DNA of 64,000 nt from Octopus vulgaris (GCA_951406725.2 OX597821.1:85126001-85190000), one strand, 5' to 3'. Positions 25,763 to 50,256 are shown, numbered from the stretch's first letter. The notes: a model not told the origin generated them from the letters alone. A program made the numbers and translations.

Positions 25763-25800
25763 TATATAAGATTTTCCATGACCTGTGCGCAGCCTATTTC
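25763..25800 (+). promoter_or_regulatory. Putative core promoter of ODC (TATA box plus initiator)
   Basis: TATATAAG at 25763-25770 in a locally CpG-rich patch (TGCGCGGCGTCG). CTATTTC at 25794-25800 fits the Inr consensus YYANWYY with A at 25796, about 31-33 nt downstream. Lies directly upstream of the uORF-bearing exon. Confidence 0.6.
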
Positions 25801-25891: not shown

Positions 25892-25908
25892 ATGCTTTAA
25901 TGTGTTAG
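25892..25908 (+). promoter_or_regulatory. Two overlapping minimal AUG uORFs: ATG CTT TAA (ML*) and ATG TGT TAG (MC*)
   Basis: Sequence ATGCTTTAATGTGTTAG; the last A of TAA (25900) is the A of the second ATG. These are the only AUGs in the inferred spliced leader. Confidence 0.55.
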
Positions 25909-25923
25909 TCCACAATCGGCAAG

Positions 25924-25971
25924 ATTCCGGGGAAAAACAGTAAGGAGAACGGTTGTGGAGCTTCTGTTCAG
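25924..25971 (+). CDS. AUU-initiated regulatory uORF (uCC), part 1: (I/M)PGKNSKENGCGASVQ
   Basis: AAG ATT CCG has A at -3 and resembles the AUU-CCG start of AZIN1-type uCCs. 16 open codons end exactly at a GT donor in phase 0. Confidence 0.75.
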
Positions 25972-27339
25972 GTAAATATATAATATATTTAATATAAAAA
26001 TATATATTTTTTTAGTTAAACCGTTACCTAGCTTCACTTAACGGTACTTGCTTTCTGCCACATTTTTTTCTTCATATTTCTAAAAATTGCATAGTGTGAA
26101 TGTCTATATATTGAAGATAATAAGGTAGATTGGGTACAAATTCGTAGTAGACATCGTTGTTTGATTATCTATTGTCTGTTAGTCCTAAATCATCAATCTT
26201 AGTTTAGTACACCTAAGTCATCAATCTTAGTTTAGTACACCTAAGTTGTGACTGTCTATGACTATAATATATTCTCACATACTCTTTTAACGGGGAGGAT
26301 ATGAGAATTTTGGCTGCTATATCTAGCAAGTCGAAGTCCCTTGTATATATGCTCCTTGTTCATACATAGTTACAGTAGTATACTGTATTTCTTGTTATCT
26401 TTTTTTTCTGTTCAGTTGACGTTACATCATCACCATTTTTGGGATAGTCTTGTATTTCCCATTTCAATAACTCCTGTTACTCAAATACAGATACCTGTAT
26501 ACATTCATTACGCATAATGGGCACAATCACGGTTTGGTGGTGTCTGGCACCGAGCTGTAATCATTCTACTAATATATATATATATATATATATCAGTGTG
26601 GTTTCATCGATAGCTCAGTTTAATTATTGATTAGCCAGTTGGTGATATTTGCTTCAAAATCTATAGTCTTACGTATGTACATACGTACATGTACTTAGCC
26701 ATAGAGCACATACATGTACCCCGTTCTGTAATATCCAATCTGTTGTTACAGAGAACACCTACAGCATTATATAATCTATATTATCCCCATAATTCTTACT
26801 GACGGAAACATTCGTGTATAAGCAATGACGGGTGTCTGTGTGGTCGCTCGATTTGCTAGAAATAGCAGCCAAGTCCTCATATCATATCATATCACATCAC
26901 ACCATATCGTCCCTCCCTCCTCTTCCTTAAAGGATTCATTAAACAATTCTGTTCTAAGGTCTTAAATGTACAAACGGTCGCGATGGTTACGACTGGAACG
27001 CCTTTAATTTGGCTGATATTTCTAGCTTAATCAGTGCTGATTTGGGGCTAAAGAAATACACATAAACGCATTTACACGTTGGCTACAGGAATATATATTA
27101 TAAAATTCTGATTTCTTAGCCCTATCTCACACTCTCAATGCACCCATTAAGCCCGACCTCTGGGTAAGGTCAGTTTAATTGGGTGATTCTAATGTCCAGA
27201 TCAAAACACAATATATTATCTTCTCTTCACTCAAATCATCCATTGTTCATTGAACTATGATCCAAAACAACAATTATGTTTTGAATTAAACACGCAATTT
27301 GAGACTTGAATGTATACAACAGTGTATACATATACATTT

Positions 27340-27372
<33 letters not shown>

Positions 27373-27475
27373 ATACACACATTCGCATGAGTGCGAATAT
27401 ACAGAACATACATGTATACAATTCACATATGCGAAGTGTGTATACATACACACATACATTATATATGTATATATA

Positions 27476-27506
<31 letters not shown>

Positions 27507-27624
27507 TTAATATTTAATATTACCTTCTTTAAGTAATGAAATATAACTAATTTCCTCAACAGGTATTAAATATGTTGTTTTTTTTTTGTTACTGATTCAA
27601 GAACTACAAGAAGCCAATTTATCC

Positions 27625-27661
<37 letters not shown>

Positions 27662-30446
27662 TACACACACACATACGTACGTATTTGAGAGACAGACATG
27701 CATATACTTATGTATGTGTGATCGGTCAGATTGTAATTGCTGAAAGCCTCTCTCTCTGTCTACGTAGCCATTTAGCATTATTGATTTCTATTGCTGGCTC
27801 TTATTTTTATGAGTACCTAATGTGTGTGTGTGTATACACCCGTACATATGTGTCTGTATGTATATATATTATACATACACACATATATATAATGTGTTTG
27901 TACTATCCTCTACTTACAGAGGAGATGAGACAGTGACATATACAGCCCTACACACATGTGTGTGCATGTGTAAACATACTGCAAAACGCAATCGTTATTT
28001 CATATTGGGCAAGAAAATCATTAGCATCATTATCATTTAATGTCTGTCTTTGCCACACTCACACTTTTTCTCAATGGAATATTGTCAGATTGTGTCTGTC
28101 TAGTCTGACTGTAATGAGCTGTACATCTATCTACCTCTCGCCATGGTGTATGTAACTCACTGTTTGGCTATATATAGACATCTACTACTAAACTCATTAC
28201 TATGTTCTTATTACCACGATTACTGCTTCTGCTACTACTGTAGCTAACCAATAATGCTGGTGGTGGTGCCATTGCGACTCTTCTGATTCGATCTGTCACC
28301 ATCTGTAATTTTTTTTTTCTTTTCTGTTTAGTCTCTTTTACTTTCAGATTCTTCTTCCAATGTTAATAGTCCGTTTGATTTACTTTCCTACTATTCTCAG
28401 TATATTTAAAAAAAAAAAACATCGCTACACTATTGATATTTTGGTAATGGAAGCGGTAGATGAAAGGGAAAATATAATTTACTTCCTGAACAAGGTTTTA
28501 AGACATCACAGTATTTTCTATATGGTTTGTCATCTCATAGAAGACCATCTTTGGCCATCTCTTTTGTTCTGTTAGCTTTGTTATAATAACTGAAATAATT
28601 GTAATAACGTTTAACATTAGTTATTTCAGAGATGGTTTTGGTTACATGGCTCTTCACTAGTAGCTTCACCTCCAGCTCTTGTACAGAACCCATTAGAACG
28701 CATTTCGCATTAAGCTCTCTGCCTTCATATTTTTTTCCTTTATAATCCAATGTAGCAAAACGGTTGTGCTGTTAAATTTTTATTCAACGTGTGTAATATA
28801 TATAAATAATACTGTTTATGTCTTTTAATCTCGTTGAAATCGTCAGTTGCCTCCTATTATCCGCCTTGTTCTGTTGTTGCACCAACTACGCATGGACCAG
28901 TCGCCATTATTTCATCACATGTCGTTTTACAATTTTCCCCAATCTACGATCCTTTGGCGGTGGCGGCGAATTCTATTTACGTCAACCCTCTCTATCGTTA
29001 TTATCTGTTTCTTGATTAATGAAATGCCTAAATAAATAGCTAACCTAAATTTATTTGCTGTCATCGTCACATACTCCAGAGCTATAATGGTGCGGGGGAT
29101 GATAGTCTAAAATACAAGTTAATCACCTCCAATTATTTTATATTGTGTTAACCAATGCCTTTCTGACGTTATGCTTAGCATCATTTCTGAATTTTCTGTA
29201 CGTTTTATCTCTCGATTATTACTAACTGCCCCTCCTCTCTCGACAGACATTCCTTTATGGTTAGATCTACGTGGATTAAACCAGCTTTATTTCATTATTT
29301 CTAACACCATTTTGTTAAATCTGTATCAATGCCAGCTCACTTTGTTTGGGCTGAAAGCTGGAGGCAGGTGGATGAATAAATTGCTGAAGTATTAAACACT
29401 TGAAAATGTTAAGTTTCGTACTGCGTGTAAACTAGTTTAGGTATATACGTCCCCTTTTACAGCCTTGTACTAATGTCTCTTTGCCATCCCCACTTCAAAA
29501 TTTAGTCTCCCTCTTCAGCACCACTTAAGCTACCCAATGAAGAAACATTTTTTCTTACTGTCTATTGTTAGAAGTTATGAATGAGATCCAACTGGTCTCC
29601 TTGCCTTCCTGTCCTAATTTATCTTCTACGAATCCCCCCCTTGCTCCATATCCTCACCAACCTAGCTTACTATCATCGGTGTTTTTATGTGGGTGTTAAA
29701 GCTGTCTCCCTCTGCATGGTTTTTATCAATTGAATTGCCCTCCCTAACTGACAGACCTCCTGCTGTGTGAAAGGGTCTGCTTAAGGGCAAATACTTCGAC
29801 TGTATCGTTTTAGAGAGCTCCCTTAATAATAATAATAATAATAATCAGGATTATTTTACAATATTTAATTAGTCCATCGCCTGCAGTAGCAATCTGAATA
29901 GTAAAAGTTGCCTGTCTGTTCTCCATGTCTAATTAGCTGATGATATAAAGTAATCCTCATTTCAGCTTACAGCAGTGTGTACCGTGTGCACCTCGCTTAC
30001 TACGGCTTGTAAGTGAAGGTAGAATTTGTTAGCTTGTTCGAGGAATATACCTCCGTTAATTGCAATCTTTGTTTCCTTGACAACGAAGCTGCTACAACCT
30101 GTAAAAGTAATTTGTTACTCAACAGGCAATGCATGTTTGTTGATTCCATAGTTGGGTTTCTTTAACACTGCTACCAGAGGTTCTGTTACATCATTCCACT
30201 GTTACTGTATCTGGCAGTAATGATGTCGATTGCTATTAAACCCCCAAACAAGAATTGGACCCCCTGTCTGATTGACACATGTTTATTGTTTAGTCCCCTA
30301 AGGTCAATCTGATCGAGCAGGCCTATTGATCAAAGCATTCTGATCGTGTTCATCATCCCACCTTTTTGTATATCATGGACTAGAGACAGTAGGATGTAAT
30401 TTGAGAGAGAGATAGCTAACACTTCCAGCAATAATTCAGATCCAGA

Positions 30447-30660
30447 AGGCGGCGAGCTGGTAGAAACGTTAGCACACCGGTCGAAATGCTTAGCTGTTTT
30501 TCGTCTGTCTTTACGTTCTGAGTTCAAATTCTGCCGAGGTCGACTTTGCTTTCATCCTCTCGGGGTCGATAAATTAAGTACCAGTTGTGTACTGGTGTCG
30601 ATCTAATCGACTGGCCCTCTCACCCAAAATTTCGGGCCTTGTGCCTTAGAGTAGAAAAGA
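30447..30660 (+). mobile_element. SINE family B (intron 1)
   Basis: Full head and body; most CpGs retained. Confidence 0.85.
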
Positions 30661-33600
30661 ATAATTCACATCCAGATAAGTAATACTTCTGTCGATTGGT
30701 ATTAGTTACTGAAATTGTTCATTTATGGTTGTCGTCTGTTTCCAAATAATATTGTAACACAATATGCCAGGTTAAACTTCATCGAGCAAACGAGAGCTTC
30801 TGAGAGGTTGCCTGATCTGCTAAAAGATAGCAATTCGTACTTCTGTCTCATTCACTGCTAATATATAGCTGACTAATCAAGTCTTATCTCTATTTAGGCC
30901 CATCCGACTTGGTCATAAACGCATAGTGTGTATTCGTCACCCATAGTCCCTTACTAATCACATTTCAATCTTTTCTTCCTTCTTAGAGACGTGAGTCCTC
31001 AGAAATTCTTCGCCTACCTTTTGTCTAATAACACCAGCCATGTTGATGTCACTATGCCTACAAACAAGATCATTAAAACATCAAAAGGAAGGACACCTCG
31101 AATGGCGTAGTCTTTAAGACATTAGCAGACAGCCATTGCTGGGGCACTTTTGTTGGCCAATCTATTTAATCGGGTCAGCCTAATGAATATTTATGATCAA
31201 GTTGGCTTTGAATTTGGTTAATACACATTCATGTTGTTTAACCTCGGTCAACTTAATCGAGCAGATCTATGGTCTGTCGTTTCAATTGTGTCCCTTTTGT
31301 ATATCATTGTTTATTGTATTCTCTTTTTGCTAACCCAATACGGGGTGGGATATATGCAAAATACTTCGAGACATGCGCTGGTTCATGTGTGTGCGTGCGC
31401 GCGCACTATTGCTAATTGTTTTAAGTGCCTCTGTCGTCGTGAGCCGACAGAGAGACCGCTCTGCCTCTTGATCCTCAGGAAGCATCCAGGATGTGATAAC
31501 TACAGGGAAAAAAGGGGGGTTGTACCAGCCCCCTGGAGCAACTTGAAATGAGCCGTTTTGCTCAGTAGGTGAACAGCTTCAACACCTAAAATAAGAACGC
31601 CGACGGTAGTAAACTGTCGATGAGGAAATGGAACGAAGGACAATTCGTACCAGATAATTAGCAGAGCAATCGAAGCCCGCTGCCTTAATCTAACCGCAAT
31701 GCCACGTGCCTGTGTGTGATGGATATGTCTACAAAACATAAAGTGAGAACTGCTCGATAGACTTATATTTTACTCTTTTTAAATTGTGGCATTTCTATCG
31801 AGTAATCTTTTTATTATTTCATTCACACGTTGAATAATAAACCTTAGCGGGATGTTTATTCTACTGTAATTTGTGTGTGTGTCTAATAATGTCCACCACT
31901 CAACTTGGCACCTCGGCTTTTCAGATCTTAAGAGGGGTCATACTCAATCTTATTCCTTAGATCCATGCTAAATAGTTTCCGTACTTTCTTCCGTTGGAGC
32001 GTTTGGTTGTGTTGCTATTTGGAATGGTTTTAAGCCTGCGAGTGTTTAGTAGGCGTTTTTTCTGTTTTCCTCTTTGTATCAGTGTTTATATACTCAGCTC
32101 CGCATGTTATACATCACATTGTGTTTCCAGTAATTTTTCGTGTCCCACAATCGGTTCACTCTGCAGAATGTTGATCGTTTCGCCTTAGAATTGTTGCTTT
32201 TTACTACCCCCACTTAATCACAATCAGTCTTCGGTTTCATGTCTTACTTTGGCTAAATTCTAAACCATGTGATGTGTTTGTGTTTCGGACAGTAGTTTAA
32301 ATATAATTTCTATCCGACCTCTGACCCCCCCCCCCCATGTTGCTAATTTTTTCGTTCTTTACTAGCCAGCCAAGCATTGAATTCGTAGCAGTTCTTTTTG
32401 TTGCATATAATTATCAAGTTTACTTTAGTACTATTAGCGTAACAAATCTCTCTTTCTCCCTCTCTCTCGGAAGCTGTTTATAAACTAGAAAAACAAAAGA
32501 TAGAACAGTGTGCGAGTTGGTCAGAGAAGCCTGTTGTTTTAGTGCCAGATCAAAAATGTTCCAGTCAAGACCATCCCATCTTGTTCCAGATGAGATCGGT
32601 TTCTTAACACATGGTATAAACCCTCGCTATATGTATAATGGGACTTAAGATTTTCGCCAGTGGTTTTAGCAACGTGGGACGGTTTTTACCTCTGGTTACA
32701 ACTGCTCCGAGCCACGACCATCGCATCCTTTTTTTTATAAGGCAGTGGACTATGTATAGTATCTTTAGTTTTGCTGACCGAAAAAAAAAATGTGGAAAAT
32801 CTTATTTTTTATAGCAAGCCGATTGAGAGTTTAGATAATCTCATGTAGGCTGGGACAAACTGGTGTTCTCCGGTATCTTCGTTATATCTGCTAATTTTAC
32901 CAAAATCATTTTATTGTTATTTGAAACAGCGAGCAACTGTTGTTTCTAATTTTATACTGATGACTTCACTTTCAGTTGATTAGTGTGACAGTCAAACCAA
33001 CATTGACTTTTATCTCTGGTACCACACGTGGCAACCATCTCCACCACCACCTGCTCACATTATTAACTGTCGGCCATGTTACATTGTTTGTGTGTGTGTT
33101 CAGTTCTGATCGTGTCGACTAACAGACAGTCAGAAGCGTTCCGACCATGACAGTCTTCTCTTTTGTTTTTCTAGGACCACATTGTCCAATATGTCCCGTT
33201 TAAAAAATTAATAGGCTTCGATTTTTAGGAGATTTTAGCTCTTGTTTCAAGCAGCTCGAGCGAATGCTTAGAGGCTTTGTAAATCTGTGTGGAGAGAATG
33301 AGAGAATATACTCATTATTTATTCCCTTATTCTCCATTATTTATTCCCTTATTCTTCATTATTTATTCAGTCGAGACGAGAAATATGTTTGCTCTATGTT
33401 TATTATTATTATTATTATTACTATTGGTTCTCTAGTTTCTCACCTGTTTCTACCTTTCTTCTTTGCCCACGTATTATTAATGTCTAGTTTCATGACTACA
33501 AATCGGAATTGTGACAGTTTAATAAAAAAAAAACAGCCTTTTAATTCTCCCCTAATTGGTCACCGTCGTTATTTGGTAACATTTATTATTTCCAGTCTAT

Positions 33601-35596
33601 AACAGAGTTGATGAATAGAAAATGTTTCCTTCACTGGATTGCAATGTGCTTCGTTTGTACACTTATATGATATGAACTTTTAATCTTAGGCAGTGCAAAC
33701 CGTGACTATTGTCACCTCTTTAAATGTAGACAGAATTGAGAACCGCATTATCCTTAATGCATCCCTCTTTTGAAGACTTGTATGTGATTTAGGGGAGATT
33801 TGACTGCTATTTCTTCAGGCAGTAAGTTTTATGTGGCCTCTCAACCAGTTAGAAATAGCAGCTAATTCACTACGAAGGAGTAATTAATAATATAAAAGAA
33901 ATATCTAATGTTCAAAACATGTCTCTTTCAGAAAGTGCTTCATCAAAATAGAATAAACCGGCTTTGCTTGTTGCTTATGAAATTTCCAGTAGTTTCGTCT
34001 TGTAAAACACATCATTTATGCTGCTGGACACAACGATGGTCTGCTAGTTTCTGCTGTCCAATGCCTTACCTCCTCTCTGGCCATTGCCAGTCTCTGCAAC
34101 CCTCTACTATTTCTCATTGATTATATTGAACAGTTTATAGTTAAATGGGCATTGAATAACCAGCTTTTCTTATCAAAAATATCCTTTTATGTACATGCGT
34201 CGGCATTCAACAGTCATCTGTTGCTTACATATATTTATTATCATTATTATTATTACTATGTCCGAGTAAAGCCCTGATTCTAGAGTCTATGCTGTAATTT
34301 TTAGTTTCGTCTGGACTGAAGCTGTTGTGACGGGTGAGTTGCTTCAAGGTTGGTTTGAAATTGATTTAAATCGAAGCCTTATGATTATCGAGAACTGTAA
34401 ATTGAAAGTTCTTCATAAACTGAGGATTTTTCGATTCACCCTAGAATATATTCACTGATGTCCTTGGGGGGGGGGGACTTTATCTTCCCTGCTCCTGGAA
34501 AGAAACCACTATCCACCAAGTTGTAGGGGTTTATTACTTCGCTGAATGCTTCAATCTTATAAAATCATTCGTAAACGTTCTAACATCGACTGCTTTCTAC
34601 TGCGTGACATTTCTAGAAATGTATTTATTCATTACCAGCTGACCGTCGTACACCCCCCCTCTCTCTCTCAATACCCTGAAGAAGGCAGTGCGTTTAGATT
34701 ATGTCTTTGGCATTGGGCATTTTATCCCTCTCCATAGTAAGGCTGTTTAATGTGTGTGTGTGTAGTCTGGATTTTGTGTGTACAATCCAGTTAATCTGTA
34801 TTGTATTTATTGTCAGTCCGACTGAGCTTTGTATGTTCAAGTCGTTTCTGATTGGGTTGTGTAGTGTGTGTCAATCTGATTAACGTTTCTACCTTGGTTG
34901 TGTGTCAAGGTGACCATATCGATTTTTTTTTAATACACACATTCGTTGGCACACATTGTCTTGTTATGAAATTGTGTTGAGTTCTTCCTGTTTCTCTACC
35001 TTGCAGGCAATTAGCTTCAACACAAGTTCTCGGCTAAGATAATGTCAGATAGCCATGGCTGTTTTAGTCGCGTCCATCTGTCTCGGAAATTCTTGGATGG
35101 AGAGAAGCCATTTCTGAAGACATTGTTATTAGTGTCTCGGTGTATGTGTTGTGTACGTATTCGTTTCTCCGAAAGTTCATGTAAATGCGTGAAACAAGTC
35201 CACCGCAATCTCTGGTTTCACAGCAGTAGATAATGCCGCATATGACTAGTTGTAGTAGCTGTGGAGAGTTTTATTTCTTTTACATCGTCGAAGAACCTGG
35301 AAACGCTTTACTCGACTATTCTACCTCTGCCTTAAATGAAATGGTATTTCAGGTTCCAGCCTGATCTCTTTCCCAATATTAAAGCACTTATCTCAGCTTT
35401 TGCTGCCATGTGCTTTCCGAATGGTCTTCCTTTACACATTCTGTGATTATAAATACAACTTATTTACTATAGTTTTTCTCTTTCTGCCTCCGTGTTTTGC
35501 CTGTAGTACTAGCTAATCCTTAGTCACAAGGTTGCCTATTTAAAAAAAAAAACGCTTTATCTAGTATCAATCAACTCGTTATTTAATTATTTGTGA

Positions 35597-35992
35597 CTAG
35601 CAGTATCGCCCGGCGTTGCTCGGGTTTGTAAGGGAAATAACTATATACGCATTTTTAGAGATGTAAAGTATAATAGCCATCTCAATATGGCTAACCACAA
35701 AGGGGGGGAGGCTGTTACTGTAGCTTTTTACGTTCTGAGATTTAATAAATTTTTAGAGAGTTACTTCCCTTATATGCCAAAAATGCATTAAAAATGGGAA
35801 AAACTGATGGTAAATTTATTTTTAAATCGTAGACTCATCGTAGACGCGCGCTAATACCCAGAAGGGCTCGATATGAATCACGACTATAAGATACCCTGTT
35901 TTGGTTAAACTGCACCGCAAAATGTGGGAGTAGTTAGGAATCTAAATCGTAGGAGACAGACAGACACACAACTTCACTTTTATATATAAAGA
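35597..35992 (-). mobile_element. Non-autonomous Helitron, longer variant
   Basis: Same TC...hairpin-CTAG termini and A|T site as 16509-16802, with about 100 extra internal bp. Confidence 0.85.
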
Positions 35993-36470
35993 TGTCTGAT
36001 TGTAGAAATAGACAGAATTTTATTGAATAACATAGTTCTTTTATATCTTTACTATGTCAATTTTTTCTCATTCCTCTCCTGTCGATAAAATAAGTCGTGC
36101 ACTGAGGGTCGAGTAAAGTTAACTTGTACCCTTGTGCCAAAGTTGGAAATCTTTCAGAATATGGAAACTAACTGCTGATTGCTGAAATGAATGTCCATGA
36201 TAGTATTAGCTTTTTGTTTTAATGCTTTGATTGTGCCTTTTGGTTGTTTTTCTCATGTGTTACGTGTTCAACTTGTTTAAAATTCAATTGCATCTGTTAT
36301 AGTTTTGTAAATAACAATAAAATGATTCTATCCTGAATTTTCTAACTTGTTTTATTCTTTTGTGTTTTTGAACACTTATCTCTCTATCTCAGGTTCAAGG
36401 CATTATTCAAGTGATATTGACAGCATAGACATAAAAGGTTTGATAAAAAAAATATTTGTATAACTAGGGT

Positions 36471-36701
36471 CAAAAAGCACCATCCGTCCGTAGCCATTTG
36501 CCAGCTCCGTCTGGCACCTGTGCAGGTGGCACGTAAAAAGCACCCACTACACTCGCGGAGTGGTTGACGTTAGGAAGGGCATCCAGCCGTAGAAACACTG
36601 CCAGATCAGACTGGGCCTGGTGCAGCCTTCTGGCTTCAGACCCCAGTTGAACCGTCCAACCCATGCTAGCATGGAAAGCGGACGCTAAATGACGATGATG
36701 A
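36471..36701 (+). mobile_element. Retroposon family D with (GAT)n tail (possibly RTE-related)
   Basis: GGCACGTAAAAAGCACCCACTACAC...TTAGGAAGGGCATCCAGCCGTAGAAAC...CCAACCCATGCTAGCATGGA...(GAT)n; many copies downstream. Confidence 0.8.
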
Positions 36702-39700
36702 AGTTTCTTTTGGCCCTTTACTCCGTCCTTATCAAATCACATTTTTTAGAGCCAACAACATTCACAAGTTGAAAGCTCTCGATCTGCTAAATTTAACTAC
36801 CAAGCCTCCTAGTGTCTTTAAAAATGGAGGAACACATTAGATAAAATAGTTTGATGAAGAAAGACAGAACTGTTATGGCTAGATTGCCTTTTGTCAGATC
36901 TGCTTCTTCAGATATGACCTGGGTCGAAACAATGACCATCAATCAAAATTTGTAAGTTTTCAAAATGATTGTGTATACTATTACGTTAGTACTCTTAGTA
37001 CCACTTAGAAGCGTGTACATGCTGAATTTGCACTGCCCGTTTCTTACCCTACCATCCTATTACTGGGTCCATTGCTGTTTTTCTTTCTGTAATTTTGAAT
37101 AGACCACTTGTTGCTCTTCCACTGTTGATGGTTGGAATTTCAATTTTTCAATAGCAACAGCTTGTTCAAGTATGATAAGGTAGGAACAATGGTTACACAA
37201 AGTAACAGTGTTAGGGTCCATAGCGTGTTTCCGATAAAAGTTTTGTACAGGGTACTTTCATGGTATCTCAGTAAACCAATGTAATTAAACCTAGAATATA
37301 AAATATTTTCTACTTTTGCTTTATGTAAATATTGCTTTTTAAAACTATATTTTAAAGATCTAGTTTATATTCATTGTAGTAGTGTTATAGTTGTAAGTTT
37401 CAAATGAATTAGCTGAGAGTGATTTTTAGAAGTTAGCATTGATATTGTGAAGGAATTTTGTAGATGTGTATTTTTCCTTTTCTTCTGCCACACTTACCTC
37501 ATAAGGTGGCAATTACCTAAAATCTAATGACTTAGGCAGTACTGCAGATTTAAAAGCAGCAATAGTTTTTCAAAAGGCATAGGTCTTAATGTGAAAGACT
37601 TATGCCTTATGAGGCATAAGTCTTTGATGTGTAAGTGGGCTAGGAATATGGAATATTGGGAAGACTTTGGTATTTTCATGAAGGACTGTGTTGAATACAT
37701 AGTAATAGTTTATATGTAAAGTATATATGCACGATTATCATATCAAGTAGGCTATTTCAGAATATTGTGCAATCACAGTTTTAATATTATCTATTAAAAC
37801 AAAATGTAGGCAGTGATTTCAATTGTGAATTATCAGGGAAATGCACTCACTTTGTATTTGTCTTATTGTTTTGTAATCTTTATCAGAGAATAGCATAGCC
37901 AGTGAAAGAAACCAAATGTACCGTGCTGTGTGTGTGTGTACATATATATATATATATATGTATACATACATACAGCATGACTTATGAATCAGTTTAGCAG
38001 ACAATTTTGTTGGGATTCGTTTGTGAGATGTAGGGGAAAATGAAATATATATACTTGTAATTTTGCTTTTGCTTGAAAGTTGATAGATTTGGTAACTTCC
38101 ACATCTCTACCTGTTTGTATTTTCCATACTCTCTGCAGCTTCTGTACTTGCCATTTACGCACGGCCAAAGCTCTCTATTCATCACCAGGCACCAGGTGGT
38201 AGTTGGGGCTTAAAGACGAAGGAAAAGATGGAACTTCTGCAGCAGCTAACGCAAGACGTGATGAAATATCGCTTTACTTTTTGACTAGGCACAAAAGTCC
38301 TCTCCAAAAAGCTTAGTAGTGTAAGTGAAGTGAATTCTATATGGTTTCAGTTTGCTGGAAGCTTACCTCTTTCCCTATGGTGTTCACCATGGTGGTAGTG
38401 GATTGTTAATTAAGATACATAGCTTACAATAGATTCCTATTGTGAGTTATGTAGCTTTTATTTCTCTCAATCAACCATTTTGTTTTTATATATACATTGT
38501 AAGAAATGAATATTGTTTTTTCTAAACATCAAATAGAATTATTTTGGATGAATTTTCTTTATTTCTGTAAAATAGTGTCTATAACTGACTCATTAATAAT
38601 ACTTGTTCTAAATTCTTAGATGGATTAATATCAACAACAGTGAAGTCTTCTCCCCCTCCACTCACAGCATAGTATTTCTGATTAGATTTTTCACAATGAA
38701 ATTCTTTTTTCTTTCAGATAGTATCTCTAATTATAACCTCAGTCATTTATTTTATTAAGTTAGACTTAGTAGTTAAGAAGAGGTAACCATGTGCAACTGA
38801 AATGTAATTCACAATCTACAAGATAGTTCTATTCTATTAAAATTTTACATAGCTTGTAGCCAAAACTAACCAAAGCAAGAGCTTACGAGTTTGCTTGATC
38901 TGCTAGAAAGATCAGTCAAATCTTAATTATATCCTGCCATCTCAAAAACGAAACTGTATATTGAATGATGTGGTCCTAAATGTATTATTACACACACACG
39001 CAAAAAAACAATCAAGGCCAAATCTCGCATTTTTTTACCTGTTAGACTGCAGCCATGGTAGAGCAACACTTTGAAGAGTTTTAATTTAATTAAATAAATT
39101 CTAGTACTTTTATTTTCCCTCGTTGTCTTAGAGAATTCTCTCTGATCATTTTTGATATGTGCAATCTCTTCCTTCTGTTCACTTCATATATATATATATA
39201 TACTCACACATCATCCTTTGTTTGTCTTAGTAGAAACTGGGAATCCTGCTTTTCTCCTAATTCTCTCTAGTTTCCAATTTCAACAAAGAAGCACTATTGG
39301 TTTAAGTTGCTATGGTAACTGTAATAGCTAGTCACACCAAGTAAAATATTAGCAATACATTTTAATGATATTAAACTATTGCTTACTTCATTCTACTTGG
39401 TAGTTTTCCAGTAAAAAATATAATGGTTTTATAGCTTAAACATCTATGTATGTGTGTGTACATATATATACACCCACGCATGCATACACATACAATGCAT
39501 GCTAAAGTTGACACTAGAGTTCTGTGCAACCCTGTGGTTTATCAGATCCTGTCAAAGCATCCAACCTATTTCACTATTATACACACACACACACACATGC
39601 ATCATCCCCTTTCTGTGTCTTCATTCATTGTTCTCTCTCCCCCTTCTGCTGCACCTTATACCTATGACTGTCAGTACCCTTTCTGAGCCACTCCTATACA

Positions 39701-41156
39701 TCTCAATTCTGCCCCATCTCTAACCATCTTTCTTCACACTCTATTGAAGCATCCTCCTGCCCATTCATCCTGTCCAATCCCTTGTACCACTTCACTTACC
39801 TTCATCTCCACTGTACCTTGAAAGTATGTCCAACACTCTCCTCCACTGCCATCTTCCTTTCACTTCCAACTGGGGTAGCCATGTGTTTCATCTAAAGCAA
39901 GACACCCATCTCTATTGCTCTTTTATACTTAAACCTCTGATCAACTGGCACAAAGCCACCTCCTCCCTCAATACTACTCCCACTCCTTGTCATGTGAGTC
40001 TTTGTCTTGCAAGTTACTTTGTGACTCCAGTGGTACTGGTGCCATGTAAAAAGCACCCAGTACATTATGAAATGGTTAGCCTTAGGAATGGCATCCAGCC
40101 ATAGAAACCATGCCAAAATAGACAAAAGAGCTTTGCACTGTCCACTGGCTTGCCAACTCCTGTCAAAGTGTCTAACCCATGCCAGCATGGAATGCAGATG
40201 TCAAATGATGATACTACTGCCCATAACTTGTTTAGGTAGAACACTAAATGCATTAAAGTTGGTACAAGGGACCCTCATCAAATCTAACTTTCAATATTTC
40301 AGAAAGATTGCATGGTTAAGGTTTCACCTAAGAACTTTTACTCATTTTATTTCTTTCGCAGCTCTTTAAGCTATTAATTAATGAGTTCTTGTCCTATAAA
40401 TGTTCATACTTTACATTGTATTATGTGAAAAATAGATTTGTATTTTCAAAAATATTTCATGTATTTCTCATCACAGTTTTACTATTTCACCCACCTTGTG
40501 GTTGTTCAATCCAGTGCTCTATAGTACTGTTGGCAGAGGCCATTCAGTTGCAATAATTCAAGCCATGTCTCCAGTCTGAAGATAACTTCCTCCTTTCTTT
40601 CTACCAATCTTGGGAGTCCTTGAACAATTAACAGTCAAGAGCACTGCTCTTCCCTCCATGACTAATTGGGGCGGAAAATAATATATAGCTTATAGGATGA
40701 GAAGTTGATTATAGTTATTAATTCGAAATATTTTACAAAAATGACCATTCCATTAGTTATATCTTCAGTGGCATACATATCGTTACTTAATTTTGCTGTT
40801 CAAGCAAAAGAACTGCATTTTTACGCAGGGCTGATTTGACTGTCCTTCCTATTTACTCCTTGAGCTGAGAAGTTTGAGTTTAATTAAAATAATGAATGTA
40901 TGTGTTTAGATTGAACAAACCTATGTGTGATCAAAAGCCTTGGCTGCTAATTCCATAGGTATACACATTTTTTCGAGTTCAAGGAATTATTTTGTCTGTT
41001 TATCTTCGTGATGTTTCATGTTGATGCCTTAGTATAACTAGTGTCACCTTACAAACAAATTTAGTATATAGTGTTTTAGGTTCGAAACAAATGTGACGTT
41101 TATTTTCTGAGTAAGACACTACAGATCCTTTGTCTGCTGTGTTTACAAACTAGTTT

Positions 41157-41538
41157 GTAGGAGTGGCTGTGTGGTAAGTAGCTTGCTTACCAACCACATG
41201 GTTCCGGGTTCAGTCCCACTGCGTGGCACCTTGGGCAAATGTCTTCTACTATAGCCTCGTGCCGACCAAAGCTTTGTGAGTGGATTTGGTAGACAGAAAC
41301 TGAAAGAAGCCCGTCGTATATGTGTGCGTCTGTGTTTGTCCCCCTAGCATTGCTTGACAACTGATGCTGGTGTGTTTATGTCCCCGTCACTTAGCGGTTT
41401 GGCAAAAGAGACGATAGAATAAGTACTGGGCTTACAAAGAATAAGTCCCGGGGTCGAGTTGCTCGACTAAAGGCGGTGCTCCAGCATGGCCGCAGTCAAA
41501 TGGCTGAAACAAGTAAAAGAAAGAAAGAATAAAAGAAT
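41157..41538 (+). mobile_element. SINE family A, full length
   Basis: High similarity to 449-920. Confidence 0.9.
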
Positions 41539-42155
41539 AGTTAGTTTTTTAAAACTTAGTATGGCAGTATAATTCAATAAAACATTTTACCATATTATAC
41601 TTTACGTCATTGAAACTAAACAGTACGACCAACGGGCTTATTAATTGATGATGGTGGTGTGATTCTATAAGATAAAACGTAAATATAAAATGTGGGTTTC
41701 TTTTGCTTTTCTATTTACCCTAATGTATCATTTATGATTGTTAAACATAAAGATAAGTATATCTACATAACTGAATAATACTTGTCTAATTAAGAGTTGC
41801 TTGCAGAGTTTACACCTGCTTTAAAAGCTATGCAGTGTTTAACATTGACTCAACTAGTAAAATAAATAACTTCACTGTCCTCTCTACCTTTTAACATTAT
41901 ATCAGTTTTTCCGTGTCTTTCTGGCTACTTACAGTTTAGAATATTGCTCTGTCTGTTTTCCTAAATTCTGTCATAACATCATGTTTATATAATTGGAGTG
42001 TATATATATATAAAATAAAATTTTTGATCACAGCAACTAAAATGGTTGATATTTTGACATTAGTTTAAACTGATGGAAGCTTTTTCATGTATATTTATAT
42101 TTTTAGCATTTTTATTTACCTGCATCTTGATTACAAGAATTTTTTTCTTTCTATT

Positions 42156-42197
<42 letters not shown>

Positions 42198-42206
42198 CCA
42201 TGAATA

Positions 42207-42575
42207 GGCGCAGGAGTGGCTGTGTGATAAGTAGCTTGCTTACCAACCACATGGTCCTGGGTTTAATCCCACTGCATGGCACCTTGGGCAAGTGTCTTCT
42301 ACTATAGGCCTCAGGCCGGCCAAAGCCTTGAGAGTGGATTTGGTTGATGGAAACTGTAAGAAGCCCATCGTATATGTGTATATATATACATATATGTTTG
42401 TGTGTCTGTTTGTCCTCCCAGGATCGCTTGACAACCAATGCCGGTGTGTTTACGTCCCTGTAACCTAGTAGTTCGGCAAAAGAGACCGATAGAATAAGCT
42501 CTGGTCTCGATTTGCTCAACTATAAAGGCGGTGCTCCAGCATGGCCGCAGTCAAATGACTGAAACAAGTAAGGAG
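42207..42575 (+). mobile_element. SINE family A
   Basis: Full head and tail; ends about 290 bp before leader exon 2. Confidence 0.85.
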
Positions 42576-42862
42576 TAATGGTCAAATTTGATATACTGAC
42601 AGATTATAAATGATTCTGACTTTAACCTTTGGCAATTCATGACTGTGTTTCTAATGAAATTCGCTGTCTATATACTTCAATTACTTTTGGAAATGATATA
42701 AAAGCAACTATGGAACATAATTTATAACATTAAACTACAGCAGGTTTTAATTTCCTATAATCATTTTTAAAACTGCAAGTTTTGTATTTTAAAAACAGAC
42801 GTGATGTGGGATAATTCTTTGGGCCAGTTCCCATTTTAATGTATTTTCTTGTCTTTTTTCAG

Positions 42863-42964
42863 GGCGGCTGTTCTGGTCTTTATTACATAGAAAATCCCGA
42901 AGGCTTCTGCCGTTTCAAGCGGAAATTCAACTTCAACGCAGAGCCACCGTGGGATCCCAGCTAG
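42863..42964 (+). CDS. Regulatory uORF (uCC), part 2: GGCSGLYYIENPEGFCRFKRKFNFNAEPPWDPS*
   Basis: Acceptor TTTTCTTGTCTTTTTTCAG| at 42862. Phase-0 frame ends GCA GAG CCA CCG TGG GAT CCC AGC TAG, matching the EPPWxPS-stop C-terminus of AZIN1/ODC uCCs. Confidence 0.9.
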   Translation, partial: GGCSGLYYIENPEGFCRFKRKFNFNAEPPWDPS

Positions 42965-42997: not shown

Positions 42998-43699
42998 GTA
43001 AGATGCTATATTACACATTTGTTGTTTGAGATGTTTTATTAGTAAATCAAGGGTTTTCAGACTTTTAATTTCATCATTTATAATTTTTCTACCTCGTTTT
43101 CTTCATACTTGTAACGAAACCATGTTTTCACATTTGTAAATAGATCTTAATGAGATTATTGCAAAATGAATGAGATCATTGAATCTCTCACTTAACTAAA
43201 GCATATAGATTTATGTGTATGTGTGCATGTATACCTCTACCTCCACACCAAACAATTTATGTATGTCTGTCTGTGTTTTTATATATGCAAATAAAAGGCA
43301 ATGATTTGGTCTAAGCATACCAGCCAAAATTTCAAATGAGATCTTCAACTTAATAACTCAATATATATACTCTATGTAATGTATTGAACTCTGATCTTTT
43401 TAATTGAGCCTCAGTCTACTGTAAAGTCATATAAGTATTTATGTATATATACAGATACATCTGTACACATATACATACTGCGCACATTAACTGATATACA
43501 TAGCAATAAATGTAGACACTCCTACACAGGCAGATACACACTCGCACAGTTGTATAAACCCTCGGGTGGAACTTGGTCACAATCAACAAATTTTTATATG
43601 TATGTATATATCTCACCATCTTTTAACGTCCATCGTATCGCTCCAATACACCACAACATTTGAACTTTTAACTTTTTTGTACTTTCTGCTTTTTATCTC

Positions 43700-43905
43700 T
43701 GTCTGGCATTTGCCATGATAGATCGCTGGCCACTACACATTCTTTTTTTTTCTCTCTCTGTTCCTTTCTGTGGAAGAGCGTAGGCTCGAAACATTAAAGA
43801 CTTTTTCACTTCCCAAGCGTTAAACTAATACATCTGTTTGTTGTCTACACTACCTGTCTTCGTCTTTTGTTTTTTGTGGGGGGTTTTTGTGTGAATTCTC
43901 CCTAT
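43700..43905 (+). mobile_element. Short element with a degenerate hammerhead-like motif (43764-43799)
   Basis: CUUU-CUGUGGA-A-GAGC[GUAG]GCUC-GAAA-CA-UU-AAAG; followed by a pyrimidine-rich tail and (TA)n, same layout as 23790-24017. Confidence 0.45.
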
Positions 43906-45169
43906 ATATATATATATACACACACACTCATACGTGCACAGACTGTATCTCATGAGACTGGATTGTGCTTGGAAAGTTTTTCTCAAAGCCTAGGTCTCCT
44001 AGATAATGTTTCTAGTGGTAGACCCATTCATCCTGTGACTAATGTTTCCCATGAGATGAGCAAAGACCAATGCAATCTGCTGAGATACTGAGATACTTTA
44101 TATTATCAACCCCAAAAAGCATAGAAAGCACAGCTAACTTTGATTGAATTTGAACTCCAGCATGCAGATAACCAGAACAAACACTGCAGGATATGCTATT
44201 CATTGCTCTAACAACTCCACCAGTTTGTTGTCTTAACTACTTCTACACAGTCACACACATCACTTCCACATATGCATCACTCCTATACATACACAGACAA
44301 GAGTTGCAGATGTTGAAATAACCTCTAATGAAAAATAAAAATAAATATTTAACATAAGTCATGTGATAAGCATTTTTCAACTACCTTCACCCCTACCCCA
44401 CCTGTCAAAACTAAATCAATTTGGTTGATAGAAATTATACAGAAGCCAGCTATGTGTGTGTCTGTGTGTGACACAGACGTGGTTACATCATTTACATTTT
44501 TTCATAACCAATATGCCTTGTGGATGGTTTTATTATACGTGAAGATAGTGGAATAAAAATACCTTGCAAAATGAATGTTGGTTACTGAAAGAGTTGTAGA
44601 ATACTCTCTCAATAACTTGTCGAATTCAAACCTGTATGGAAAAAAAAAATGGATGTAAAAATAAAAATGACATAAACACACAAACAAAACAAAACAAAAG
44701 GCGATTTTTCTCTGATTAAAAAGCAAATTGTATTGTGCTTGAGTGTAAACTAGAAAAACTGAACAGTTGTGAAATGTGGGGCTTGAATGCAGAGGATTTA
44801 CAAAGACTAGAAAGAAAAGTAGTGAGCAATGTTCTGTTCTGTAATTTTAGATTACATGAACCATGTAGCACAAAGAAACTGGGACAAAATGGTTAAAAAG
44901 AGAGATATAGTGTGCAAGAGGGAAGAGCACATTGGTATGGGCATGTGGTACATATGAAAGATGACTTGACGTGGATGGAACCTGTGGAAAAAGGGAGACC
45001 TAGAAAGACATGAGATACATTGAAGATTGATATTAGGAGAGTGATTCTCATAAAGCTGACAAAGGACTAATGGTTGATAGCATGCATTGCTAGGAAGGGC
45101 CCTCACCCATCCATGCAAGGATGGTATAGTAAGCATTATGATAGCCCCTGCCCATTCAAACTACCTTGG

Positions 45170-45697
45170 ATACCAGAACATCCCGCTGTGCTTGAGGAGA
45201 CCTATTGAGTCAAGTACATGAACATCGAAATAAATATCAATGGAAATAGTAGTTGTGATACCTGTGCCGGTGGCACATAAAAAGCACCATCTGAACGTGG
45301 CCGATGCTAGCGCCACCTCGACTGGCTTCTGTGCCGGTGGCACATAAAAAGCACCATCCGAATCATGGCCGATGCCAGAGCCGCCTCAACTGGCTTCCGT
45401 GCCGGTGGCACATAAAAAGCACCATCCGAATCGTGGCCGATGCCAGTGCCACCTCGACTGGCTTCCGTGCCGGTGGCACGTTAAAAGCACCAACCGATCG
45501 TGGCCGATGCCAGACTCCCCTGGCACGTAAAAAGCACCCACTACACTCGCAGAGTGGTTGGCGTTAGAAAGGGCATCCAGCTATAGAAACACTGCCAGAT
45601 CAGACTGGAGCCTGGTGCAGCCTCTTGGCTTCCCAGACCCCAGTCGAACCGTCCAACCCGTGCTAGCGCGGAAAACGGACGTTAAACGATGATGATG
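45170..45697 (+). mobile_element. Retroposon family D, longest copy, with four 67-68-bp internal tandem units
   Basis: GTGCCGGTGGCAC..AAAAGCACC units start at 45264, 45331, 45399 and 45467; (GAT)n tail. Confidence 0.85.
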
Positions 45698-46087
45698 TAG
45701 TGATGGTGACTTGATATTTATGTCTACATTTTGAGCTATATATTTAGTATATCTCTGTTAAGCCACCATCTGCTGCTCCTCTCCTTATTACATTTGGGCT
45801 TATTTCTCTTTTTAAGCTCTCTGGTACACTTTTATCTGTTGCTAATCTTTCCTTCACTAACCAGCTTACCTTCTCATCCACTGAACTCTCTCTCTCTCTC
45901 CATCATACTCTCACTGCAGTTTTGTATATTTTCCAATGCTCTCACCTCTATCATTGTTTTAAACCACAATTTCCCTCCTCATTCCCCACCCTCTATTCAC
46001 TCTCTCTGTCATGGTCACGGTCATGTTGCTTTGACTGAATGAAGACACTGCAGAGCACAAAGCACACTTGATGATGATGATAATAAT

Positions 46088-46285
46088 CCTTTCTACTAAA
46101 GGCACAAGGCTTGAAATTTTACGGGAGGGGTTAAGTCAATTACATCAACCCCAGTGTTCCGCTGGTAGTTGTTATATTGACCCTGAAAGGATGAAAGGTA
46201 AAGTCGACCTCCGCAGAATTTGAACTCAGAAAAAAAAAAAGACAGATGAAATATTATTAAGTATTTTGCCTGGTGTACCAACGAT
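46088..46285 (-). mobile_element. SINE family B, diverged
   Basis: Reverse-complement body, flanked by (TAA)n. Confidence 0.7.
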
Positions 46286-46842
46286 TCTGCCAGTTTGCTG
46301 CCTTGATAATAATAATAATAATAATAATAATAATAGTTCCATGACAAGATGGACTCAATATATTCTGTAAAGTGAGATAATGCAGAGAAGATTCTTAAAT
46401 TTGTTCGAAGACTTGACATCTGTACAGTGCCATGATAAAGTGCATCCAGCACCCTTTGAAATGGTTGATGTTATGAAGGACACCCTTTCTGTAGAAATAA
46501 TGCCAAAACAGAAAACTGGAATGAGGCATGATCAGTGTGGAAAGGCAGTAATGTTGTATAAGAACTGACTCGTATTGTGATGATTCATCCGACTCTTGCC
46601 AACAGAGAGAGCAGGCATAAAAGTTGTGTGTATATGTCTACACACACACACACACAAAATTGTTTGAAGTTGCTATCAATATAGACTTGGCACATGTATT
46701 GAGTCCTTCATTCAATGTTTTTATACATTTAAAGACACTTCTTTTATAGTCTTGTAAATATACACACTTATTTGTAGTGAAGCATGTATTTATGTACGTG
46801 TAATGTGTTTACATATATATGTCTATATCCTTGAATCTCTTA

Positions 46843-47236
46843 ACTCTTTTACTTGTTTCAGTCATTTGACTGTGGCCATGCTGGAGCACCGCCTTTAATC
46901 GAGCAACTCGACCCCGGGACTTATTCTTTTGTAAGCCCGGTACTTATTCTATCGGTCTCTTTTGCCGAACCGCTAAGTAACGGGGACATAAACACACCAG
47001 CATCGGTTGTCAAGCAATGCTAGGGGGACAAACACAGACACACAAACACACACACGCATATATATACATATATACGATGGGCTTCTTTCAGTTTCCGTCT
47101 ACCCAATCCACTCACAAGGCTTTGGTCGGCCCGAGGCTATAGTAGAAGACACTTGCCCAAGGTGCCACGCAGCGGGATTGAACCGGAACCACGTGGTTGG
47201 TAAACAAGCTACTTACCACACAGCCACTCCTGCGCC
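46843..47236 (-). mobile_element. SINE family A, full length, inverted relative to 41157 and 42207
   Basis: Reverse complement of the 449-920 sequence with few differences. Confidence 0.9.
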
Positions 47237-48029
47237 TGAATATATATTAATATATTCCCAAAGGAAGAGTTTAATTCTACTGCAACAGTTTCTACAACAA
47301 TAAATACTATTTAGTAATATTCCATGATAAATGAATATAAGTTTGTATTCTTTACAAATTTACACTCCTTCCTCCATGCTAGTTGTTTCAGGTAATTGTA
47401 TAGATGTTTGCCTATGTGATTATAGTACTGTTCGGATACCTTACCTAATAGCGAATTTTCTTTCAAGTTTAGAATGTCGCCAGAATTTTACTTTAGCAAA
47501 TCTAGGATTGGGACAATCTTGGTAGCATCCCATTCCTAAGTACACCCACTAAATTATTTACTAATGATTATAGTGAATTTCGAAGACAGAGACTGAGTCT
47601 CCTTGTCTTAACATTGCACTCTAATAAGAAACAAATTTCACCATCACATAATCAGTGGTGTTTGTTTGCAGTCCATACTAGGGGAAAATATTAGATTGCT
47701 TGGGAATACATGAAGTTTGGCAACAGAAAAAGCATCTGACCATAAAGATACTGTATCAACAAATCTGAACCCATCAGAATACACATTTTCGTTTGTGTCT
47801 GATTAGTAGTACTCCTCATTCTGTGTTTGACTCTACTGCTTATTCCTCTGCAACTGACTTTAACTGTTATCACTCTTGAGTTAATGAAGCAGGTACCAGA
47901 AATATGCTACAGATGAGCTGGCTTTGTTTAAATAGGAATAATATGGTTGACTACTCTGTCAAATGTAATGCTTATTTATTCATATTGTATTCAGTTGACC
48001 AGGTATTGTCTTGTAACTTCAAGATTGCG

Positions 48030-48375
48030 ATGATGATGATCATCATCATCATCATCGTTTAACGTCCGTTCTCCATGCTAGCATGGGTTGGACGGTTCGA
48101 CCGGGGATCTGGGAAGTCAGAAGGCTGCACCAGGCTCTGGTCTTATCTGGCAATGTTTCTACAGCTGGATGCCCTTCCTAACGCCAACCACTCCGTGAGT
48201 GTAGTGGGTGCTTTTTACGTGCCACCTGCACTGGTGCCAGGCGAGGCTGGCATCGGCCACGGTTGGATTGGTGCATTTTACGTGCCACCTGCACGGAAGC
48301 CAGTCGAGGCGGCACTGGCTTCGGCCACGATTCGGATGGTGCTTTTTACGTGCCACCGACACGGAAGCCAGTCAA
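48030..48375 (-). mobile_element. Retroposon family D
   Basis: (CAT)n followed by the reverse-complement body. Confidence 0.85.
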
Positions 48376-49976: not shown

Positions 49977-50035
49977 TTTGAAAAGAGACAAAAGAGCTGC
50001 TATCTCCTATCTGAGCTTAAAGGGTGTTAATTTAA

Positions 50036-50256
50036 CCCTTTAGCATTTAAACCGGCCATATCCGGCCAAAAATATTCTACCTGTTTTATGTTCAAACTGG
50101 CCAGATCTGGTCTCTCACACCAACCCTACAATATCGTTTTAAAAATTAACAGCTACCTCATCAAAATCTCATAGCTACAAGATAATGCCTGATTAGTTCA
50201 AAACAATGTGGATAAAAAAGGATTAATTTTAGCAGAATAATGCGAACACTAAAGGG
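50036..50256. mobile_element. piggyBac-type MITE
   Basis: TTAA|CCCTTTAG...CTAAAGGG|TTAA; related copies at about 60555-60766 and 48410-48500. Confidence 0.75.

What the first reader, a model, noticed from the sequence alone, without database searches (positions are those of the whole stretch)
25924..42964. Hidden AUU-initiated, intron-split uORF ending EPPWDPS* upstream of an enzymatically intact ODC: a polyamine-sensing translational switch
Seen: joining donor 25971 to acceptor 42863 across a 16.9-kb intron gives a stop-free 49-codon frame, (I/M)PGKNSKENGCGASVQ|GGCSGLYYIENPEGFCRFKRKFNFNAEPPWDPS*. It has no in-frame AUG, starts at AAG-ATT-CCG, and stops 66 spliced nt before the first ODC ATG. 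Established: vertebrate AZIN1 and some other ODC homologs carry an AUU-initiated uCC whose PPW motif needs eIF5A. High polyamines inhibit eIF5A, ribosomes pause and queue, AUU initiation rises and the main ORF is repressed. Pro-Ser-stop is also the eIF5A/polyamine-sensitive terminus of the yeast HOL1 uORF. Inference: this biosynthetic ODC senses its pathway products by the same feedback, with both PPW and PS-stop. The mechanism class is known; this instance is probably unannotated because non-AUG, spliced uORFs escape ORF finders.
Basis: partly seen in the sequence, partly recalled or inferred. Interest (0 to 1): 0.92.

Follow-up and report, generated by a model that had tools for sequence, protein, structure and literature searches.

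The report
Polyamine-sensor uORF upstream of ODC
The leader of this animal's ornithine decarboxylase gene hides a short, intron-split reading frame without a normal start codon; it is an ordinary copy of a known polyamine-sensing brake on translation, but in some of its relatives the frame appears to stay protein-coding past its own stop codon.

Summary
ATT at 25924 opens a 49-codon frame across the 25971>42863 splice that ends NAEPPWDPS-TAG, 66 spliced nt before an ODC that keeps its active-site motifs. Seventeen related loci share the peptide end, and all differences in its last nine codons are at third positions. Thirteen of 14 related transcripts have an in-frame ATT 46-49 codons before the stop. 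Both leader introns lie at the same places in genomic relatives, including a teleost-type one.

This is a new member of the known uCC class of animal ODC homologues (reviewed in PMC2811004: six animal phyla, PP...PS end). The scan has noted this kind on other DNA. Polyamine/eIF5A control is inferred from AZIN1; no reads or ribosome data were obtained here.

One extra result: in 6 of 13 distinct related transcripts (picked by eye), 17 codons after the uCC stop evolve like protein (pN/pS 0.22) up to a shared second stop. That suggests stop-codon readthrough. In the window this stretch is conserved as nucleotides, but its coding signal is weak. A hairpin over the stop was not supported.

The parts
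25763..25769 (+). TATA-like box; would put the transcription start near 25795, about 130 nt before the ATT (inferred)
   Evidence: Sequence; related transcripts have 35-210 nt before their ATT. Start site not measured.
25892..25900 (+). Tiny AUG uORF (Met-Leu-stop), out of frame with the uCC; its stop overlaps the next AUG
   Evidence: 10 of 13 related transcripts with a mapped ATT have AUG uORFs upstream of it
25900..25908 (+). Tiny AUG uORF (Met-Cys-stop), in frame with the uCC, ending 15 nt before the ATT
   Evidence: in-frame short uORFs end 9-21 nt before the ATT in L007, L008, L015, L017, L019
25924..25971 (+). uCC codons 1-16 in leader exon A, starting at ATT-CCG with A at -3
   Evidence: same 16-codon spacing to CAG|GG in L005, L007, L011; spliced P0002 versus unspliced P0045
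25972..42862 (+). Leader intron 1, 16.9 kb, phase 0, GT-AG
   Evidence: same position in genomic L013 and L020, and a matching acceptor in L018
42863..42964 (+). uCC codons 17-49 and TAG in leader exon B; ends NAEPPWDPS-stop (PPW at 42944-42952)
   Evidence: one match in the own genome; pN/pS 0.29 against L005
42965..42997 (+). 33-nt post-stop element, conserved as nucleotides up to the donor; first 11 codons of a possible readthrough extension
   Evidence: Beats at least 499 of 500 shuffles against 7 of 13 transcripts; coding signal weak in the window
42998..55967 (+). Leader intron 2, 13.0 kb, GT-AG
   Evidence: donor-like sites 33-35 nt after the stop in L013, L018, L020; acceptor rank 1 of 661
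55968..56123 (+). Exon C: end of leader (second in-frame stop TGA 12 nt before ATG 56001) and first ODC coding exon; ATGs at 56001 (weak context), 56028 (A at -3), 56040
56774..63586 (+). ODC coding exons 56774-56870, 57787-57863, 60142-60314, 60984-61121, 62067-62232, 63427-63586; two more exons lie 1.6-4.0 kb beyond the window (L002)
   Evidence: All GT-AG, 424 codons without stop, active-site motifs present; three window exons and one beyond the window match PDB ODC chains above AZIN1

Best explanation
[quoted passage not shown] At low polyamine levels most scanning ribosomes pass the weak AUU and start ODC. At high levels eIF5A works poorly, so ribosomes that did start at AUU stall at Pro-Pro-Trp and at the Pro-Ser-stop. 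Scanning subunits then queue back over the 43 codons to the AUU, initiation there rises, and ODC synthesis falls. Shown here: the frame, its conservation as protein, the conserved ATT and context, the intron positions, and the intact enzyme motifs. Inferred from AZIN1 and HOL1: initiation at AUU, the stall, queuing and the polyamine response. The tiny AUG uORFs probably tune how many subunits reach the AUU able to initiate (inference).
For: Frame and splice signals. Seventeen related loci; 14 are spliced transcripts with an ODC-family ORF 63-165 nt downstream. In-frame ATT 46-49 codons before the stop in 13 of 14 (the 14th has none in that range and its contig starts 48 codons before the stop), ATT-CC in 12 of 14 against a background of 0.4%, and A at -3 in 13 of 13. 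Only third-position changes in the last nine codons. Same peptide end in named gastropods and teleosts. Intron positions shared. Active-site motifs K69, D88, E94, R154, K169, H197, D233, E274/R277, D332, C360-D361 and Y389 present. One match each for the uCC exon and for one ODC exon in the own genome. Reporter results for mouse AzI: 6.5-fold repression, lost with AUU>UUU or with the last 10 codons changed (PMC4458265, passage).
Against: No reads, ribosome profiles or reporters for this species. The N-terminal 16 codons are barely conserved, and BLASTP found no alignment between exon A and P0002, so exon A rests on the ATT context, spacing and donor. The seeds contained NAEPPWDP. L007/L008 and L011/L012 are near-duplicates. 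Only 42.8 kb upstream was scanned for rival first exons. PMC10855120 writes the motif as PPWxxPS, while here and in the teleost peptides one residue separates W from PS. In C. elegans Ribo-seq, odc-1 changes were inconsistent across replicates (PMC13578949, passage). The last ODC exon was not identified.
Confidence: 0.85

Rival explanations
1. uCC with programmed stop-codon readthrough (an addition to the best explanation, not its opposite). Slow, eIF5A-dependent termination at Pro-Ser-stop lets some ribosomes read through and translate 17 more codons to a second stop just before the ODC start. This either extends the roadblock or releases stalled ribosomes.
For: In L006, L007, L009, L010, L014 and L021 the 17 codons after UGA are conserved as peptide (YLLKEQ...LLRIS) and end at the same second stop. 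Amino-acid identity is 0.745 against 0.476 in column shuffles and the synonymous share is 0.59 against 0.19 (0 of 3000 shuffles reach either). pN/pS is 0.22, like the uCC's own last 17 codons (0.19); the other two frames give 0.43 and 1.84. Not used in that test, yet showing the same start: genomic L013 and L018 and predicted proteins P0069, P0012, P0047, in which a Trp stands at the stop. The window's stop is UAG-C and its frame also stays open for exactly 17 codons.
Against: The six were chosen by eye from 13 distinct transcripts, and pairwise counts are not independent. In the window the register is shifted by 2 nt and pN/pS against its three closest relatives is 0.50-0.83. Shuffle tests on that group give 89 and 331 of 3000. 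An open frame of 17 codons has a chance of 0.48 in the window's spacer. L016 and L017 stop after 12-13 codons. Teleost-type L020 has a tandem stop, and P0056, P0057, P0059, P0061 end one Trp after the Ser.
Confidence: 0.2
2. Constitutive damper or independently acting peptide: the uCC is translated and conserved, but here it only lowers ODC output or makes a small peptide with its own job, and does not respond to polyamines.
For: No test of polyamine response exists for this gene. Conservation extends beyond PPW and PS (PEG and FNAE motifs).
Against: Conservation is concentrated in the C-terminal residues that would lie in the ribosome tunnel, with a variable N-terminus. The weak AUU is kept instead of AUG in 13 of 14 transcripts. 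The vertebrate element with the same end is polyamine-responsive (PMC4458265, PMC9082881, passages).
Confidence: 0.1
3. Exon B is real, but exon A is wrongly assigned: the true first exon lies elsewhere, so the start codon and length differ.
For: No reads across the junction. Little peptide similarity in codons 1-16. Seven sites pass a loose donor filter.
Against: Only 25924 passes the strict filter and has ATT-CCG at the 16-codon spacing seen in relatives. A TATA-like box and tiny uORFs lie in the expected place. The GK-IP context recurs in P0002/P0045, whose spliced and unspliced forms part at the same point.
Confidence: 0.04

Closest known systems
Animal uCC of ODC homologues (Ivanov, Loughran and Atkins 2008, seen only through the review PMC2811004)
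   Same: Non-AUG (AUU) start in good context, about 50 codons, adjacent prolines near the end, terminal Pro-Ser-stop, upstream of an ODC homologue, accompanied by ordinary AUG uORFs.
   Different: Nothing defining. The parts of the review that I read do not mention the two leader introns or conservation after the stop; the primary paper and its alignments were not held.
Vertebrate AZIN1 uCC (Ivanov et al. 2008 and 2018, seen through passages of PMC4458265, PMC9082881, PMC10855120)
   Same: AUU start, PPW stall motif, PS-stop. Peptides of named teleosts end in the same FNAEPPWDPS, and teleost-type locus L020 shares both intron positions. That those fish loci are AZIN1 is inferred from the literature, not tested.
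   Different: The main ORF here is an ODC with intact active-site motifs, not an antizyme inhibitor, so feedback would act directly on the biosynthetic enzyme. L020 has a tandem stop, whereas the window's frame stays open for 17 codons.
Yeast HOL1 uORF (MLLLPS-stop; PMC10855120 passage)
   Same: Pro-Ser-stop terminus with eIF5A- and polyamine-sensitive termination.
   Different: Six codons with a Met start, no PPW, controls a transporter; not homologous.

Membership tests
Animal uCC of ODC homologues | Lies in the 5' leader of an ODC homologue | tested here: met
   ODC ATG 66 spliced nt downstream; exons match PDB ODC chains
Animal uCC of ODC homologues | No in-frame AUG; conserved in-frame AUU in good context | tested here: met
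   ATT at 25924 with A at -3; same in 13 of 14 related transcripts
Animal uCC of ODC homologues | About 50 codons | tested here: met
   49 codons; relatives 46-49
Animal uCC of ODC homologues | Adjacent prolines (PPW) near the end and terminal Pro-Ser-stop | tested here: met
   NAEPPWDPS-stop in the window and in 17 of 17 loci (PPW was seeded, the Ser-stop was not)
Animal uCC of ODC homologues | Conserved as protein in its own frame | tested here: met
   513 of 513 differences at third positions; pN/pS 0.29 for exon B against L005
Animal uCC of ODC homologues | Present in the spliced mRNA of this species | tested here: inconclusive
   Junctions supported by relatives; no reads of this species were laid
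Animal uCC of ODC homologues | Initiation at the AUU and polyamine/eIF5A-dependent repression of the main ORF | not testable with these tools
   Needs ribosome profiling or reporters
Active ornithine decarboxylase | PLP lysine and active-site residues | tested here: met
   11 of 11 motifs found. K69, D88, E94, E274/R277, C360-D361 and Y389 placed by PDB alignments; the other numbers and the residues' roles are recalled. Activity not assayed.
Antizyme inhibitor (catalytically dead ODC homologue) | Loss of active-site residues | tested here: not met
   Residues kept; each of four exons scores higher against ODC than AZIN1 chains
Programmed stop-codon readthrough | Coding-type conservation between the stop and a second in-frame stop | tested here: inconclusive
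   Met in 6 of 13 distinct related transcripts (pN/pS 0.22), weak in the window (0.50-0.83)
Programmed stop-codon readthrough | Conserved stimulatory RNA structure near the stop | tested here: not met
   Window fold z +0.80; covariation no better than shuffles; consensus fold -0.47 kcal/mol, matched by 128 of 300 shuffles; no Rfam match on the + strand

The most novel reading that the evidence does not exclude
The Pro-Ser-stop of the animal ODC uCC is a programmed readthrough site. An ancient 17-codon extension, still evolving as protein in several invertebrate-type ODC and dead-ODC mRNAs and kept in the window as a frameshifted, nucleotide-conserved 17-codon stretch, is translated when eIF5A-dependent termination slows. 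This would add a second polyamine-controlled outcome that carries ribosomes to within a few codons of the ODC start; teleosts closed it with a tandem stop. I put translation of the extension at about 0.6 for the six relatives and about 0.2 for the window. Whether it is already in the 2008 or 2018 papers could not be checked.
Probability: 0.3. Interest if true: 0.7.

Novelty: new member of a known kind. Interest (0 to 1): 0.42.

Why it matters
If true, this animal's ODC is switched off by its own pathway products at the level of translation. That gives a test case for the AZIN1 queuing mechanism on an active enzyme, which is probably the ancestral arrangement. Gene callers mishandle the element: it turns up as hypothetical proteins or fused to unrelated genes in several named genomes. 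The shared intron positions point to one origin for invertebrate and teleost uCCs. The part that could surprise a specialist is the coding signature beyond the stop in relatives, which would link eIF5A-dependent termination to readthrough in a uORF and can be tested with a simple reporter.

Tried and rejected
Sequencing runs: one search listed 24 runs, 20 holding all sampled words of exon B. No RNA holder was listed on record, so this is no evidence on expression. Laying contigs over intron 1 gave no result, so neither junction is shown from reads of this species.

Hairpin over the stop codon: read by eye from L006 (z -3.9, the only one of 17 below -2) and rejected. Window z is +0.80. 117 and 113 of 500 shuffles reach the paired fraction and covariation score. 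It beats slid controls (70.7% against 26-43%), but it was derived from one row. RNAalifold finds no such stem on all 17 rows or on 13 rows after dropping L016, L017, L019, L020. Variant pair types were 15 compatible and 18 incompatible.

Fusion of uCC and ODC by one readthrough: rejected, because a second in-frame stop intervenes in the window and in all 14 transcripts.

Searches that found nothing or only chance hits: word search with a 40-aa window piece; viral contigs, 0 of 8 stretches; prokaryotic genomes, 1 of 6 stretches, L022, a chance match without PS-stop. Five of the 11 hits were longer proteins matched on the first 18-25 query residues or without a listed stretch, and were dropped unread. 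Rfam gave one sub-threshold minus-strand snoRNA hit, E 0.46. CpG enrichment near exon A is not distinctive. The sigma-70 scan does not apply to an animal gene. The ODC tree left the window in no starred clade, and cluster look-ups of 10 main ORFs gave no organism names, so the taxa of L005-L021 are not assigned.

Literature: no paper held contains PPWDPS or octopus + ODC + uORF + polyamine. Searches for uCC with stem-loop or readthrough listed no title on this point; I checked passages in two of the papers they list and in the review. Ivanov 2008, Ivanov 2018, Vindu 2021 and Dever and Ivanov 2018 were not held; their figures and supplements may already list mollusc uCCs and the post-stop conservation.

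Full report
Verdict. [quoted passage not shown] Its mechanism is inferred from vertebrate AZIN1. The less expected result concerns relatives more than the window: a coding signature past the uCC stop.

The observation. ATT at 25924, a donor after 25971 and an acceptor before 42863 give 49 open codons ending NAEPPWDPS-TAG (42962-42964). A second intron (42998-55967) leaves 66 nt to ATG 56001. The own genome (2.8 Gb, 227 contigs) has one match to the exon-B peptide and one to a central ODC exon; these searches score only the best candidates. ATG 56001 has a weak context and ATG 56028 has A at -3.

The enzyme. Nine coding exons, two of them beyond the window, join with GT-AG ends into 424 codons without a stop, and 11 of 11 active-site motifs are present. 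Four exons tested score higher against ODC than against AZIN1 chains in the PDB. The last exon was not identified. Residue roles and some numbers are recalled, and activity was not tested.

Conservation. A scan of metagenome contigs gave 338 pattern matches and 17 confirmed loci. Fourteen are spliced transcripts with an ODC-family ORF 63-165 nt after the stop, and three are genomic. Among 17 distinct sequences, window included, all 513 pairwise differences in the last nine codons are at third positions. NAEPPWDP was a seed, so part of this is by construction. Not seeded: Ser-stop in all; an in-frame ATT 46-49 codons upstream in 13 of 14 transcripts (L009 has none in range; its contig starts 48 codons before the stop); ATT-CC in 12 of 14 against 0.4% background; A at -3 in 13 of 13; upstream AUG uORFs in 10 of 13; intact enzyme motifs in 13 of 14 (for L016 one pattern missed on a neighbouring residue, and the Asp is visible). 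L007/L008 and L011/L012 are near-duplicates. Predicted proteins of the gastropods Biomphalaria (named ODC-like) and Elysia and of several teleosts end in the same motif.

The junctions. No reads of this species were laid, so support is indirect. For intron 1, 6 of 13 distinct transcripts have CAG-GG 31-33 codons before the stop, as the window's join has at 33. Genomic L013 and L020 have ATT, 15-18 codons, a donor and an acceptor at the same place. P0002 and P0045 look like the spliced and unspliced readings of one relative and part at that point. In window 1-42862 only 25924 of 44 ATTCC sites passes a strict donor filter, and seven sites pass a loose one. Against this, codons 1-16 show no BLASTP alignment to P0002. 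For intron 2, donor-like sites lie 33-35 nt after the stop in all three genomic relatives, and 55968 is the best of 661 possible acceptors. L020 matches the teleost peptides, so both intron positions appear shared with fish.

Mechanism. Shown: frame, selection on the peptide end, retention of a weak start codon, and position before an intact enzyme. Inferred: leaky scanning past AUU at low polyamines; an eIF5A-sensitive stall at PPW and PS-stop at high polyamines; queuing back over 43 codons; more AUU initiation; less ODC. Papers seen: PMC2811004 (parts 1-2 of 4 read, further passages, supplement 1 searched, supplement 2 not searchable) describes uCCs in ODC homologues of animals and fungi, ending Pro-Ser in six animal phyla, tested only for AZI1. 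Passages only: PMC4458265 on the mouse reporter results, PMC9082881 on PPW stalling and queuing, PMC10855120 on PS-stop and HOL1, PMC8162569, PMC13578949 on C. elegans, where odc-1 was inconsistent; PMC4528330 and PMC5009743 gave nothing relevant. The primary papers were not held.

After the stop. The 33 nt between stop and donor are conserved. The window's copy beats at least 499 of 500 shuffles against 7 of 13 transcripts, 492 against one, and shows no clear signal against five. The terminal Ser codon is AGC in 17 of 17. A hairpin over the stop was tested and not supported.

A possible readthrough extension. Six of the 13 distinct transcripts, picked by eye, all with UGA-UAU, carry 17 in-frame codons (YLLKEQ...LLRIS) to a second stop at the same position. 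Amino-acid identity and synonymous share exceed all 3000 column shuffles. Distinct variants are 20 synonymous to 13 non-synonymous, and pN/pS is 0.22, against 0.19 for the uCC's last 17 codons and 0.43 and 1.84 in the other frames. L013, L018, P0069, P0012 and P0047 were not in the test and begin the same way. Conservation starts at the first codon after the stop and codon 2 is not a constant near-cognate start, so readthrough fits better than reinitiation (inference). In the window the frame is also open for 17 codons after UAG-C, but the register differs by 2 nt and chance gives such a frame 48% of the time. pN/pS against its three nearest relatives is 0.50-0.83, and shuffle tests give 89 and 331 of 3000. 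Here the constraint looks nucleotide-level and its cause is unexplained. L016 and L017 stop early and L020 has a tandem stop. Searches and scan look-ups showed nothing on this point, but the primary papers could not be read.

Earlier scan notes. One search lists three findings of uCC-like frames before ODC in other genomes, one animal and two fungal. They agree with the class assignment and were not checked.

Scores. Novelty: new member of a known kind. Interest 0.42: the class and its presence on invertebrate ODC are in print, and the lift comes from the shared intron positions and the testable readthrough lead. Novel case: probability 0.3, interest 0.7.

Noticed in passing
L010:36-176 (uCC) and 268-1482 (main ORF): A transcript with an intact uCC and 17-codon extension in front of an ODC homologue that has lost the PLP lysine (Arg instead), His197 and the DIGGGF and EPGR motifs. 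It scores closer to ODC than to AZIN1: a candidate independently evolved antizyme inhibitor on a very long branch.
   Followed up: partly
L006, L007, L008, L009, L010, L014, L021 after the uCC stop; L013:3109-3141; L018:125-157: Seventeen-codon in-frame extension with pN/pS 0.22 and a shared second stop: candidate stop-codon readthrough of a uORF.
   Followed up: partly
window 42959-42961 and all 17 loci: The terminal Ser is always AGC although neighbouring codons vary at the third position; unexplained nucleotide-level constraint next to the stop.
   Followed up: no
L009:9: This transcript has an in-frame ATG 46 codons before the stop and no ATT in range: either a uCC with an AUG start or an artefact of the contig end.
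   Followed up: no
P0062, P0065, P0066, P0070, P0007, P0048: Gene models in named fish and gastropods annotate the uCC exon as a hypothetical protein or fuse it to unrelated models such as zona pellucida protein 4.
   Followed up: no
window 45264-45514, 48207-48373, 49054-49301, 51818-51966, 54976-55117: Five short tandem arrays of a related 62-68-bp unit in leader intron 2, on both strands; probably a dispersed repeat family.
   Followed up: no
window 13604-14368, minus strand: A 254-codon open frame that resembles, from recall, the C-terminal zinc-finger/nuclease end of a non-LTR retrotransposon; not searched.
   Followed up: no
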